From contig NW_021836374.1 of NCBI RefSeq assembly GCF_006345805.1, forward strand, positions 1-28,706: a stretch of 28,706 bases of DNA, in the 5' to 3' direction. Shown here piece after piece: positions 1,130 through 28,616 of the stretch (the stretch's first letter is position 1; each line of letters starts with the position of its first letter). A program made the translations under genes and the position numbers. Origin of the DNA: Octopus sinensis. Taxonomy: Eukaryota. The notes under the pieces were generated by a model. It made no database searches, was not told the DNA's origin, and saw only the letters and a list, made by a program, of their open reading frames with translations.

Positions 1130-2627
1130 TATATGAATCTTCTGTCTATGTGATACTTCTAGCAAAGGATATGATAAACCAGTAGAATATACTTGGCCAA
1201 GGCACTATGTATTAGGACGAAACCAGGAATTGTATAGTCATAATTCTGAAATGAAATTCTAAACCACATAACCATTTCTATGACATTTTTAACAATAGAA
1301 AAACATAAGCTCGTCTGATATGAAATATATCTATTCCCACTAAATATGCATACATACCTATCTACATACAGAAATGTGTGTGAGTGTGTTGTATGTGCTT
1401 GTGTGTGTGTGTATGTAAGTGTATGAATATATAGGTGATTAATATTGTTATATATACAGGTACAGGTAAAAAAAAGATATGTGGATATTTGAAACAACTA
1501 AAAGCCATTGAGGTAATGTTATTAAATCTAAAATATTATCTGAATCCTGGAAAATAGGTAACAAAAAAAGAAACACAAAAATATCAATTCTGAATTATTA
1601 TGAAGGCTTTTTTTTTCTTTTTCTTTTTTTTTTTTTTTGCTTTGCTTTGCTTTTTTCCTATAAAATTGTATTATTTGAAGATTTACTAAATTAAAACTGG
1701 ATATATAAAAGAGCAGAGATTGAAGTCTGAAGAAATTTATAATCTGAATATGACATCATACAAATGCAATCGATAACTGAATAAAAAAATATATACACAT
1801 GTGTATATATACATACGTATGTGTGTATGTGTGTCTTTGTCTGTGTGTGTATCTTTGTGTATATATACACATATATTTACATACATGTTACATATGTATG
1901 CACATATTGATATATATATATATATATGTATATATGAATGTATATATGTATGTATATAAGCATATGAACTCATACATATATGCATTGTTTCTATGTGGAG
2001 TTACATTTAAGAACAATTTAACATTAAGTTGAAGGATTACTTAATTTTTGCAAAAGTACAAATTTATTAAATTGAACAGGGCGGGCAAAACTTCAAACTT
2101 ATTGCCAACCTTCTCCTTGTAAAAGTTCAATAATTATTACATACATATATACATACATACATACATATAAAGATTTGTGTAGCATCATCCGTTTTTCTGT
2201 TCTTGTTTCATATACATTCGATCCTTTTCCCAAGAAATCTAATGCTCGTAGCTTAGTTTTTCCTTGGGGTTGGCCAGATCGGAGCAATCTCAAGATTAAT
2301 CAGCCGAAATTGCGAGGATGATCCGGTTCTTGACTGAAGATTAAAGGCTTCGAATGACCCATCCTTGTTTTTTTCATCGTCTATTTGGATGTTTAGCATT
2401 CTTCTCCCAATTTGTTTTTTTATATATATATATATATATAATCATCATTACCATTATTTAATGACTGTTTTCCATCCTGGCATGGGTTGGACAGTTTGAC
2501 ACCCAGAGCTGGTAAGATCAGGGACCTGAGTGCCTTTTATATAGCACCATATATACACACATATGTATATATGTGCATATATAAATGTGTCTATATGTTT
2601 ATATATATATGTAAGTATATATATGTG

Positions 2628-2662
<35 letters not shown>

Positions 2663-2710
2663 AAACAAGTCAAAATAGAAAATGCTAAAATAATTTTATA
2701 AAGAACATTT

Positions 2711-2748
2711 CAGTACCGGTTTCGGTCATTTTGAGACCTTTTCAACTG
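2711..2748 (-). ncRNA. Minimal type I hammerhead ribozyme, U3-A8 core variant
   Basis: The minus strand reads CAG UUGAAAA GGUC ucaaaau GACC GAAA CCGG UA CUG. This gives stem I CAG/CUG, stem II GGUC/GACC, palindromic stem III ACCGGU and a GUA cleavage triplet. Confidence 0.7.
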
Positions 2749-3019
2749 TAACGATTAAATAATTAAATTAGAAAAATTAGAAGAAAAGTTTTTTAAAGGA
2801 ATATTTGTATAGTTCAAATATAAGTGGCATTCTGCCTTTCTTGTCTCCCTGTTTGCACTTGTGTGTTCGAGGCGTGAATTCAAACGGCCTCCAACACACA
2901 AGTGCAAACAAGGGAGTCAGAGAAAGGCAGAATGCTACTTATATCTGAACACTACTATAGAAATATCTTTAAAAAAACTTTTCTTCTAATTTTTTCTAAA
3001 TTTAATTATTTAATCGTTA

Positions 3020-3056
3020 CAGTTGAAAGGTCTCAAAATGACCGAAACTGGTACTG
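3020..3056 (+). ncRNA. Mutated second copy of the same hammerhead ribozyme
   Basis: CAG UUGAAA GGUC ucaaaau GACC GAAA CUGG UA CUG. One core A is lost and the stem III palindrome is broken. Confidence 0.55.
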
Positions 3057-3141
3057 AAATGTTCTTTATAAAATTATTTTAGCATTTTCTATTTTGACTT
3101 GTTTTTTCATAATATCAATCGTGGTTCCTTTTCACCCTTAT

Positions 3142-3192
<51 letters not shown>

Positions 3193-7409: not shown

Positions 7410-7748
7410 TTATTATTGTCATTGTTATTATTGTTATTATTATTATTATTATTGAGTGAGAGAGCAGTGCATGCCATCAAAGTGACACTGGGGTAAAATA
7501 TACAAAGCCCAGTAAACCATCATGACTACCTGTCTGATAAGGGTACACCAAGCACATGCATCACAACCATATGTGAGTGACATGGTGATTATCAGGATTA
7601 ACAGCTCATGACCTTGCAGGGGGGCCCAGTTAGAATTTTCTTCAAATCAAGTAGCCATCCTTGCTCAAAAGGTCCCTGAATAAGGGTTTTTTAAGTATGT
7701 TGAACGAAACACCCATGTTTCCAGAGGTGAATTATCCAAATCCCAAAG
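7410..7748 (-). mobile_element. Retroposon 3' end with (AAT)n tail
   Basis: The minus strand ends ...GCATGCACTGCTCTCTCACTC(AAT)n. A second copy begins at 5892. Confidence 0.6.
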
Positions 7749-8405
7749 CAAAGTCGACTTCAACGGAATTTGAACTCAGAACGTAACAGCAGACGAAATA
7801 CGTATTTCTTTACTACCCACAAGGGGCTACACACAGAGCGGACAAACAAGGACAGACAAACGGAATAAGTTGATTATATCGACCCCAGTGCGTAACTGGT
7901 ACTTTATTTAATCGACCCCGAAAAGATGAAAGGCAAAGTCGACCTCGGCGGAATTTGAACTCAGAACGTAGCGGCAGACGAAATACCTATTTCTTTACTA
8001 CCCACAAGGGGCTAAACACAGAGGGGACAAACAAGGACAGACAAATGGGTTAAGTTGATTATATCGACCCCAGTGCGTAACTGGTACTTTATTTAATTGA
8101 CCCCGAAAAGATGAAAGACAAAGTCGACCTCGGCGGAATTTGAACTCAGAACGTAGCGGCAGACGAAATACCTATTTCTTTACTACCCACAAGGGGCTAA
8201 ACACAGAGGGGACAAACAAGGACAGACAAATGGATTAAGTCGATTATATCGACCCCAGTGCGTAACTGGTACTTATTTAATTGACCCTGAAAGGATGAAA
8301 AGGCAAAGTCGACCTCGGCGGAATTTGAACTCCGAACGTAGCGGCAGATGAAGTACCGTTAAGCATTTCACCTGGCATGCTAATGTTTCTGCCAGCTCTC
8401 TGCCC
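7749..8405 (-). mobile_element. tRNA-derived SINE (Meta-domain-like) expanded as a 185-bp tandem array
   Basis: CAAAGTCGAC occurs at 7749, 7934, 8119 and 8304 (exact 185-bp period). Only the unit at about 8340-8405 has the 5' head. The core GTCGACTTTGCCTTTCATCCTTTCGGGGTCGAT..AAGTACC resembles the Meta/Sauria SINE domain. A monomer lies at 15429-15660. Confidence 0.8.
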
Positions 8406-10707: not shown

Positions 10708-11087
10708 TCTTTATATATAAAAGTGAGGTTGTGTGTCTGTCTGTCTCCTACAATTTAGATTCCTAACTACTCCCACATTTTGCAGTGCAGTTTAACCACT
10801 TATAGTCGTGATTCATATCAAGCCCTTCTGGGTATTAGCGCGTGTCTACGATGAGTCTATGATTTAAAAGAAAACTTACCATCATTTTTTTCCATTTTAA
10901 TGCATTTTTTCGCTATTATATAAGGGAAGTAACCCTCTAAAAATGTCTACGATGAGTCAACGATTTTAAAAAAAATTTACCATAATTTTTTTTCCATTTT
11001 TAATGCATTTTTTGGCTATAACTCTCTAAAAATGCTTATATAGTTATTTCCCTTACAAACCCGAGCAACACTGGGCGATACTGCTAG
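10708..11087 (+). mobile_element. Non-autonomous Helitron, copy 1
   Basis: Starts A|TC, has a subterminal hairpin CCCGAGCAACACTGGG and ends CTAG. No target-site duplication. Confidence 0.85.
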
Positions 11088-11485
11088 TCTTTATATATAA
11101 AAGTGAGGTTGTGTGCTGTCTGTCTCCTATGATTTAGATTCCTAACTACTCCCACATTTTGCGGTGCAGTTTAACCCAAACCGAGTATCTTATAGTCGTG
11201 ATTCATATCGAGCCCTTCTGGGTATTAGCGCGCGTCTACGATGAGTCTACGATTTTAAAAATAATTTACCATTATTTTTTTCCATTTTAATGCATTTTTG
11301 GCATATATAAGGGAAGTAACTCTCTAAAAATTTATTATTAAATCTCAGAACGTAAAAAGCTACAGTAACACCCCCCCCCCTTTGTGATTAGTCATATTGA
11401 GATGGCTATTATACTTTACATCTCTAAAAATGCTTATATAGTTATTTCCCTTACAAACCTGAGCAACGCCGGGCAATACTGGTAG
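11088..11485 (+). mobile_element. Non-autonomous Helitron, copy 2
   Basis: Same TCTTTATATATAAAAGTGAGGTTGTG 5' end, hairpin CCTGAGCAACGCCGGG, and ends GTAG|T (mutated CTAG). Confidence 0.85.
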
Positions 11486-11564
11486 TATTTATATATATGT
11501 ATATGAGTATATATATATATGATTGAGTGCATCTGTGCTTTTGTGTGTCTCTGTGTGTGTTCTC

Positions 11565-27649: not shown

Positions 27650-28616
27650 TGATATTATTTTCAGTGATAAGGCCGAATTTTATAACTCTGCCTTACTTAA
27701 AGCAGGTTATACAGAGAAAGATATCTACATTGATTCCATTCAATCTTATTCTAACTTTACTAATGTAGATATGAAATCTAGTTGTAAAGAAATTAAAGAT
27801 ATCAATTTTAATTTATACACTAAAACAAAACGAAGAAAGGGGATAACGCTTATTTAATCCTCTATTTTCATTCTAAAGGTAAATTTAAGTCTTTCAAAAA
27901 TAATTACACTAAGAATAAGATAACTAGTAGTAATTTGGTTAATTATTCCATACAGGGGGCAAATTAAATCTAATCTCCCATTGCAGTTTAGTGAAGCTAT
28001 TATTAGGAATTTTCCAAAGAATTCTAGGTATTACTCTATTATCAACTCACATACGGTTAGGATTGGTTTTTCTAACACTAAAAATCTCTTACAAATTATC
28101 TCTTCATATAATATCAACCCGTTAAATATTAATACATTTACTAACACGAACATTAATTTAGTTAATACTATTCCTCCCTCTAGAAATATTAATAACAAGA
28201 TTATTGTAGCTGAAGTCAATTCCAACAGAATTAAGTTTATGTCAAGTAACTCTAAAATTAAACATTCTATATACCAGTGTAAAATAAGTACTCATAATAA
28301 AGTACAATCTTACATTGGAAGCACATCTTCACAGTTATATAAAAGAATTTCTATCCATTACTCAACATTTAGGGATAGGAATAAATGTAACAGTACAGGG
28401 CTTAGTAAATTAATTTGGGATCTAAAAGACCACAATGAACAATTTAATTTTAAATGGTTGATTCTCTCAATCTCGATACCTTATTAAAAAGGCAAGGAAT
28501 TCTGTCTTCTCTGTAATTTTGAACTATTTTTCATTATTTTTTCTAAAAATCCCCTTGTAAACACGGTTATAGAGCATGCAAACCGATGTAAACATTGGCA
28601 AAAACACACCTTTTAG
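27650..28616 (+). pseudogene. Penelope-like element ORF 3' part (RT thumb/linker and GIY-YIG endonuclease), 5'-truncated and disrupted
   Basis: Motifs are FYNSALLKAGY (thumb), NFPKNSRYYSIINSHTVRIGFS (linker) and SIYQCKI...SYIGST...KRISIHYSTF...STGLSKLIWDLK...W (GIY-YIG). After an internal stop at 28485-28487 it continues KGKEFCLLCNFE...LVNTVIEHANRCKH to TAG at 28614-28616. Confidence 0.85.

What the first reader, a model, noticed from the sequence alone, without database searches (positions are those of the whole stretch)
2657..3145. 455-bp palindrome carrying twin hammerhead ribozymes with a compensated U3-A8 core
Seen: a near-perfect inverted repeat whose arms each contain a minimal type I HHR. 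The intact copy (2711-2748, minus) replaces the C3-G8 tertiary pair with U3-A8 and has a palindromic stem III (ACCGGU). Known: PLE pseudo-LTRs carry minimal HHRs thought to act as dimers, PLE insertions often have inverted 5' segments, and the 3-8 pair tolerates compensatory swaps. Inference: the arms diverge from the centre, so read-through from either strand makes the antisense arm first. The ribozyme would then be trapped in ~220 bp of dsRNA, a self-silenced ribozyme and potential ADAR/siRNA substrate.
Basis: partly seen in the sequence, partly recalled or inferred. Interest (0 to 1): 0.8.

Follow-up and report, generated by a model that had tools for sequence, protein, structure and literature searches.

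The report
Head-to-head Penelope retrotransposon ends with hammerhead
This palindrome is two back-to-back end fragments of a very common jumping gene (a Penelope-like retrotransposon), each carrying that element's small hammerhead-ribozyme-shaped motif; it is an ordinary, likely inert insertion of a kind already described.

Summary
2657-3111 is an inverted repeat (arms 92% identical). The minus strand at 2711-2748 carries a type I minimal hammerhead motif with U3-A8 and a palindromic stem III; the right-arm copy is broken.

The stretch is a 5'-truncated insertion of a young Penelope-like element (RT plus GIY-YIG): two pseudo-LTR ends head-to-head in (TA)n, one with the 34-bp tail. The 38-nt motif has 1,647 exact copies in this genome, and 19 of 40 sampled loci hold head-to-head pairs. 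U3-A8 cores, opposite-strand hammerhead pairs and siRNA from inverted Penelope copies are all published.

The motif looks real in the lineage (a stem II pair swap between subfamilies; C3-G8 relatives), but inserted copies decay. 'Self-silencing' is right as folding for a read-through RNA but adds no function: a lone copy cannot form stem III, and no transcription evidence was obtained.

Two side inferences. U3 is predicted to pair with A17, like the known inhibitory C3-G17 trap. One-tail-per-pair asymmetry and mismatched arms suggest each target strand is primed separately.

The parts
2630..2658 (.). (TA)n target microsatellite, left flank
   Evidence: 59 of 64 free element ends are followed by TA-rich repeat
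2657..2873 (-). Left arm: 5'-truncated PLE pseudo-LTR end, without tail
   Evidence: 95-97% identical to the best genomic copies; matches the 3' end of RT/GIY-YIG elements such as L038
2711..2748 (-). Intact minimal type I hammerhead motif: U3 (2745), A8 (2740), stem II, palindromic stem III ACCGGU (2720-2715), A17 (2714); predicted cut 2714/2713
   Evidence: 1,647 exact genomic copies
2874..2886 (.). Head-to-head junction centred on GAATTC (2876-2881), a few bases shorter than cleaner copies of the same junction
   Evidence: 5 other loci carry this junction within 2 mismatches; junction views
2876..3110 (+). Right arm: 5'-truncated pseudo-LTR end; its inner part carries a different subfamily haplotype from the left arm
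3020..3056 (+). Broken hammerhead copy (one core A missing; C>T at 3049 in stem III)
3111..3144 (+). PLE 'tail' (about 34 bp), the sequence that follows the upstream pseudo-LTR in tandem copies; present on one arm only
   Evidence: L038 4245 onward
3145..3185 (.). (TA)n target microsatellite, right flank

Best explanation
The palindrome is a short, 5'-truncated insertion of a high-copy Penelope-like retrotransposon: two pseudo-LTR ends joined head-to-head in a (TA)n repeat, each carrying the family's U3-A8 minimal hammerhead motif, and it is likely an inert by-product of integration. Shown: the element identity (a 4.4-kb unit with RT and C-terminal GIY-YIG), the copy number, the one-sided tail and the TA target. 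Inferred: the element's protein nicked both strands of the TA repeat and copied element RNA from each end. One copy started at the tail site and one at the pseudo-LTR end, both stopped about 220-235 nt upstream, and the two products joined at the self-complementary GAATTC. Inferred: the hammerhead matters only in the source element's RNA, where it would need a partner copy (6-bp ACCGGU duplex) and probably protein help. A predicted U3-A17 pair would further hold it off. If read through, this locus would form an ordinary TE hairpin open to Dicer or ADAR, as is known for inverted Penelope copies.
For: Element: family copies continue upstream into RT (Pfam RVT_1 E 4.6e-8) and GIY-YIG (E 7e-5). 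L038 shows pLTR-tail-ORF-pLTR with a 4,386-bp period. Layout: 1,647 exact 38-mers; 19 of 40 sampled loci hold head-to-head pairs; 19 of 21 pairs have exactly one tail against 3 of 25 unpaired arms; 59 of 64 free ends abut TA repeats. Literature describes the same layout, tail and TA bias (PMC8557442; PMC3846280). Motif kept in source lineages: the stem II closing pair is G-C in the young family and A-U in 80 of 100 listed older copies (counted by eye), and 2 homologous copies have C3-G8. Copies decay: 10 of 32 older copies picked without regard to the motif keep it intact. 0 of 30 copies picked by downstream sequence begin at the predicted cut. Monomers of a Schistosoma minimal HHR showed no cleavage (PMC4209133); an Anolis PLE HHR needs protein and is dispensable for insertion in vitro (PMC11167929).
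Against: No cleavage, transcription, small-RNA or editing data for this family. No read-level check of the locus. The two-end priming step is contested by my own data: arms usually share a haplotype (343 of 357 marker comparisons agree; 1.1% within pairs against 4.2% across loci) and 4 of 34 pairs share a variant seen in no other sampled copy, which also fits fold-back copying or gene conversion. In older copies the motif varies less than the downstream flank (4.3% against 7.7%), so some constraint on copies cannot be excluded. The covariation rests on one stem II swap and 2 C3-G8 copies.
Confidence: 0.88

Rival explanations
1. One reading: the palindrome is a self-silenced ribozyme whose dsRNA is a selected ADAR or siRNA substrate.
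For: The read-through fold buries the intact motif. siRNAs map to inverted regions of Penelope copies in Drosophila (PMC3681739). Head-to-head copies are common, so collectively they could feed silencing of the family.
Against: A single arm also rarely forms the motif (stem I 2%, stem II 5% in the 217-nt arm) and cannot form stem III. The second copy is broken. Older copies decay. No convincing host ORF on the contig. Transcripts starting at the centre would contain only one arm (inference).
Confidence: 0.05
2. Same element, different origin of the inversion: one cDNA or RNA folds back at a short palindrome and copies itself (self-priming), so both arms come from one molecule.
For: Proposed in PMC3846280 from palindromes at junctions. 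The junction here and at 5 other loci is centred on GAATTC. Arms mostly share haplotype and sometimes private variants.
Against: In 4 of 19 one-tail pairs the tail-less arm is the longer one, which a copy of a single first strand cannot give. The window's arms differ at subfamily markers, and L099 pairs a C3-G8 arm with a U3-A8 arm. Conversion or misassembly could explain such discordance.
Confidence: 0.35
3. The U3-A8/A17 motif is no longer catalytic even in the source element and is kept as a protein-binding or structural RNA signal.
For: The minimum-energy folds pair U3 with A17 in the monomer and the dimer. The analogous C3-G17 pair is the proposed trap that disables minimal HHRs (PMC3884650). 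No sampled copy starts at the cut site.
Against: The core and stems persist across subfamilies about 80% identical. The C3-G8 relatives show the catalytic tertiary pair is kept when position 3 changes.
Confidence: 0.3
4. The palindrome is an assembly or fold-back read artefact on a small unplaced contig.
For: The window is the whole 28,706-bp contig. No second copy of the flank, and no empty site, was found. The right arm has several single-base indels.
Against: The symmetry stops at the element's ends with a one-sided tail, as in 19 of 21 pairs. The arms carry different natural family haplotypes. The same junction occurs at 5 chromosome-scale loci. Single indels, including the missing core A, could still be sequencing errors.
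Confidence: 0.04

Closest known systems
Minimal hammerheads in PLE pseudo-LTRs, including the Schistosoma mansoni Cercyon U3-A8 variant (Cervera and de la Pena 2014, PMC4209133)
   Same: Type I motif in a pLTR; U3-A8 core (their row S. mansoni 4 reads UUGAAAA, the same seven bases); palindromic stem III; thousands of mostly truncated copies; dual motifs 100-700 bp apart on opposite strands.
   Different: No extra base between A9 and stem II; short 4-bp stem II; a 6-nt palindromic stem III; cleavage-site base A17, which can pair with U3 (their row 4 has U17).
EN+ Penelope-like elements of the Neptune/Nematis type (as described in PMC8557442)
   Same: RT with C-terminal GIY-YIG, CX4CX2C linker, CCHH motif, 5' truncation, partial tandems, inverted 5' copy, 30-40-bp tail on one end, microsatellite bias.
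   Different: No phylogeny was run, so the clade is not resolved. The window holds no coding part.
Anolis Poseidon PAc (Frangieh et al. 2024, PMC11167929)
   Same: The tail lies between two RT start sites; both target strands are cut and extended; AT-rich targets; the HHR is not needed for insertion.
   Different: There the HHR overlaps the start codon and has C3-G8. Here it lies about 120 nt upstream of the likely ATG. The part of the paper I read does not link two-strand priming to head-to-head inserts.
Inverted Penelope copies as siRNA sources in Drosophila (PMC3681739)
   Same: Rearranged copies with long inverted repeats proposed to give dsRNA; siRNAs map to the inverted parts.
   Different: No small-RNA data here.
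Non-LTR retrozymes (PMC7229834; bioRxiv 10.64898/2026.07.22.740005)
   Same: Short non-coding repeats with type I HHR, linked to PLE pLTRs.
   Different: Retrozymes are direct tandems that allow dimer cleavage and circles. This insert is inverted with one sense copy per strand.

Membership tests
EN+ Penelope-like element | RT in the parent element | tested here: met
   Pfam RVT_1 E 4.6e-8 in L038:6088-7827; YLDD motif
EN+ Penelope-like element | C-terminal GIY-YIG endonuclease with CCHH | tested here: met
   Pfam GIY-YIG E 7e-5 in L033; two Cys and two His read from the translation
EN+ Penelope-like element | Pseudo-LTRs from partial tandems, inverted 5' copy | tested here: met
   L038 pLTR-tail-ORF-pLTR; head-to-head pairs in 19 of 40 loci
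EN+ Penelope-like element | [quoted passage not shown] | tested here: met
   window 3111-3144; exactly one tail in 19 of 21 pairs
Neptune/Nematis clades | CX2-5CxxC linker between RT and EN | tested here: met
   CGRPNCGIC in L032, L033, L034 translations; definition from PMC8557442
Neptune/Nematis clades | RT phylogeny places it in the clade | not tested
   no reference set was gathered
Minimal type I hammerhead ribozyme | Core N3 UGAN N8 A / GAAA / UH with a 3-8 pair, helices I and II | tested here: met
   left arm; not met by the right arm
Minimal type I hammerhead ribozyme | Covariation in helices and the 3-8 pair | tested here: inconclusive
   one stem II swap G-C/A-U and 2 C3-G8 homologues; one search counts 2 pairs with double changes, but on 9 hand-picked rows
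Minimal type I hammerhead ribozyme | Palindromic stem III allowing a double hammerhead | tested here: met
   dimer minimum-energy fold contains the ACCGGU duplex (-8.3 kcal/mol alone), with U3-A17 also paired; a prediction
Minimal type I hammerhead ribozyme | Site-specific self-cleavage | not testable with these tools
   needs an in vitro assay
Non-LTR retrozyme | Direct tandem of 2 or more HHR-bearing units | tested here: not met
   arms are inverted; one sense copy per strand
Endogenous siRNA / ADAR hairpin locus | Read-through transcript, small RNAs or edits | not tested
   no read data obtained for the locus

The most novel reading that the evidence does not exclude
Head-to-head Penelope inserts record two-ended integration. 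A PLE protein dimer primes reverse transcription from both nicked target strands, one at each of the two internal start sites, on ordinary sense RNA and sometimes on two different RNA molecules. This explains the head-to-head polarity, the single tail per pair (19 of 21), tail-less arms longer than tailed arms (4 of 19) and arms of different subfamilies (this window, L088, L099), without the antisense self-priming proposed earlier.
Probability: 0.4. Interest if true: 0.5.

Novelty: new member of a known kind. Interest (0 to 1): 0.22.

Why it matters
The family is a useful resource for two open points. How PLE inverted repeats and tails form is called unresolved in PMC8557442, and this family gives countable asymmetries that separate two-end priming from fold-back. 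Whether U3-A8 minimal hammerheads cleave was not tested in the parts of PMC4209133 that I read, and this family offers natural U3-A8 and C3-G8 homologues and a predicted U3-A17 trap to compare.

Tried and rejected
Rfam scan of the window: no hammerhead among the 150 listed of 241 matches; the hits at the palindrome were sub-threshold miRNA hairpin models.

Sequencing-run search: no RNA holder listed; 20 rows from 9 studies hold under half of the words, unlaid, so no evidence either way. No reads or contigs were laid on the locus, so assembly accuracy of single bases and expression stay open.

Empty site or second haplotype: a search with the left flank gave only the window at full length, plus an unrelated repeat family.

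MITE or DNA transposon with terminal inverted repeats: rejected, because the arms are the 3' ends of an RT-coding element and most copies are unpaired or unequal.

Motif conservation among the 40 loci was not used as evidence, because those loci were chosen by an exact motif match. The same holds for the 'few fixed differences' and for 0 of 65 arms ending at the cut site. Motif-blind samples were drawn instead.

Earlier scan findings: two look-ups, nothing returned.

Paper searches: 'Penelope, twin priming, inverted' gave 2 papers, neither on PLE mechanism by title or abstract start. 'hammerhead, U3-A8, C3-G8' gave 2. 'octopus, Penelope, hammerhead' gave 4 listed, none describing this family by title or abstract start. 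The library lacks most subscription papers.

Full report
Observation. The inverted repeat is real: arms 2657-2873 and 2876-3110, 92% identical, 6 substitutions and 8 small indels, the outer 86 bp 99% complementary. It sits between (TA)n runs. On the minus strand 2748-2711 reads CAG-UUGAAAA-GGUC(UCAAAAU)GACC-GAAA-CCGG-UA-CUG, a type I minimal hammerhead with U3-A8, palindromic ACCGGU and a predicted cut at 2714/2713. My descriptor found this one hit in the window and none in the reversed window or 40 resampled windows. The right-arm copy (3020-3056) lacks one core A and has ACUGGU.

What it is. The window is a whole 28,706-bp contig of a 2.72-Gb genome. Its size and repeat make-up recall an octopus-type genome (from memory, not tested). 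The arm is a high-copy repeat (1,381 candidates). Copies continue upstream into a coding region with RT (Pfam RVT_1 E 4.6e-8), a CX4CX2C linker and GIY-YIG (E 7e-5; translations). L038 shows a partial tandem, pLTR-tail-ORF-pLTR, period 4,386 bp. It is therefore an EN+ Penelope-like element of Neptune/Nematis type; the clade was not tested by phylogeny. The window holds only two pLTR ends, of 222 and 235 nt; the right one carries the 34-bp tail at 3111-3144.

How common. The exact 38-nt motif occurs 1,647 times (839 + 808; reversed control 0). Among the first 100 listed, 26 neighbour pairs lie within 10 kb: 22 head-to-head, 3 direct, 1 tail-to-tail; 4 of the 22 are under 300 bp apart. I fetched the first 40 clusters on contig C1. 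19 of 40 hold a head-to-head pair. With the window, 19 of 21 pairs have exactly one tail, and in the other 2 an arm runs on into a tandem unit. 3 of 25 unpaired arms have a tail. 59 of 64 free ends abut TA repeats. 14 of 65 arms stop 195-240 nt upstream of the pLTR end, a hot spot that may be the RNA 5' end (inference). Five other loci have the same GAATTC-centred junction.

Is the hammerhead real? In the lineage, probably yes. An older subfamily about 80% identical (657 pattern matches) keeps U3-A8 in 96 of 100 listed copies. Its stem II closing pair is A-U in 80 of 100 and G-C in 0, against G-C in the young family (counted by eye). Two homologous copies have C3-G8 (L098, L099). With single changes at about 1 in 100 each, two doubles are more than decay would give, but the numbers are small. 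Inserted copies decay: of 36 older copies picked by upstream flank, 4 were dropped (2 duplicates, 2 ending before the motif) and 10 of 32 keep core and stems I and III. Their motif varies less than the downstream flank (4.3% against 7.7%), which fits constraint in source elements but does not exclude constraint on copies. Of 30 young copies picked by downstream sequence, 20 have the exact motif and none begins at the cut site (one has an N gap upstream).

Folding (predictions). The 217-nt single arm also rarely forms them (2% and 5%); a 61-nt piece does (78% and 97%). A15.1-U16.1 never forms in a monomer. The dimer's lowest-energy fold is the double hammerhead with an ACCGGU duplex, but U3 pairs with A17. 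By analogy with the proposed C3-G17 trap of minimal hammerheads (PMC3884650, 6 passages), this would lower activity, so 'compensated' may overstate the core.

How the inversion likely arose. Head-to-head polarity is what results if each nicked target strand primes on sense RNA. The Anolis PLE protein cuts and extends both strands, is predicted to be a dimer, and starts at two internal sites that bound the tail (PMC11167929, parts 1-2 of 4 read). For this reading: one tail per pair; the tail-less arm longer in 4 of 19 pairs; the window's arms differ at subfamily markers (6 of 213 sites); L099 joins a C3-G8 arm to a U3-A8 arm. Against it: arms agree at 343 of 357 marker comparisons, differ by 1.1% against 4.2% across loci, share a rare variant in 17 of 34 pairs (358 of 6,165 cross-locus pairs), and in 4 pairs share a variant seen nowhere else in the sample. 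That fits one active source per cell, but also fold-back self-priming (PMC3846280, 12 passages) or conversion. I leave this step at about 40%.

What is known. PMC4209133 (parts 1-2 of 4 and supplement parts 1-2 of 3) reports U3-A8 minimal HHRs in Schistosoma PLEs (about 1,300 hits), dual motifs 100-700 bp apart on opposite strands, palindromic stem III, no monomer cleavage and weak dimer cleavage. PMC8557442 (12 passages) describes inverted 5' copies, one-sided tails and microsatellite bias. PMC3681739 (5 passages) reports siRNAs matching inverted Penelope regions. PMC7229834 (12 passages) and bioRxiv 10.64898/2026.07.22.740005 (part 1 of 5; supplements not seen) cover retrozymes; PMC7151607 (1 passage) added nothing. 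My searches found no description of this family or of a U3-A17 trap, in a library that lacks most subscription papers.

Verdict. A new member of a known kind, interest 0.22. Activity, expression and single-base accuracy were not tested.

Noticed in passing
G000 loci L101-L129, e.g. L118:925-2073: A second repeat family with a canonical C3-G8 type I hammerhead and the same ACCGGU stem III, in direct tandems of about 360 bp, non-coding as far as seen and often with a head-to-head inverted unit. It looks like a non-LTR retrozyme inserted in PLE fashion. It makes up most of the 100 listed of 140 matches; no BLAST match to this PLE.
   Followed up: partly
L099:1438-1872: An older head-to-head pLTR palindrome whose arms carry different hammerhead cores, C3-G8 on one and U3-A8 on the other: a natural pair for activity tests.
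   Followed up: partly
40 sampled loci L053-L092: 14 of 65 arms have their 5' end 195-240 nt upstream of the pLTR end, out of a 4.4-kb unit; possibly run-off at the transcript start.
   Followed up: partly
L069:4479-5477: Two short pLTR palindromes side by side, separated by TA repeat, each with one tail.
   Followed up: no
window 2173-2440: Another abundant repeat of about 268 bp (5,293 candidates, copies 88-93% identical); no hammerhead found by the descriptor in 7 copies.
   Followed up: partly
window 27924-28487 (+): A 187-aa open frame with an IYQC...YIG stretch, weakly like the PLE endonuclease (BLASTP E 0.001 over 23 aa; no Pfam GIY-YIG hit); probably a fragment of another PLE.
   Followed up: partly
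window 7748-8357 and 10753-11524: Tandem arrays of 185 bp x 3.3 (94% matches) and 390 bp x 2.0.
   Followed up: no
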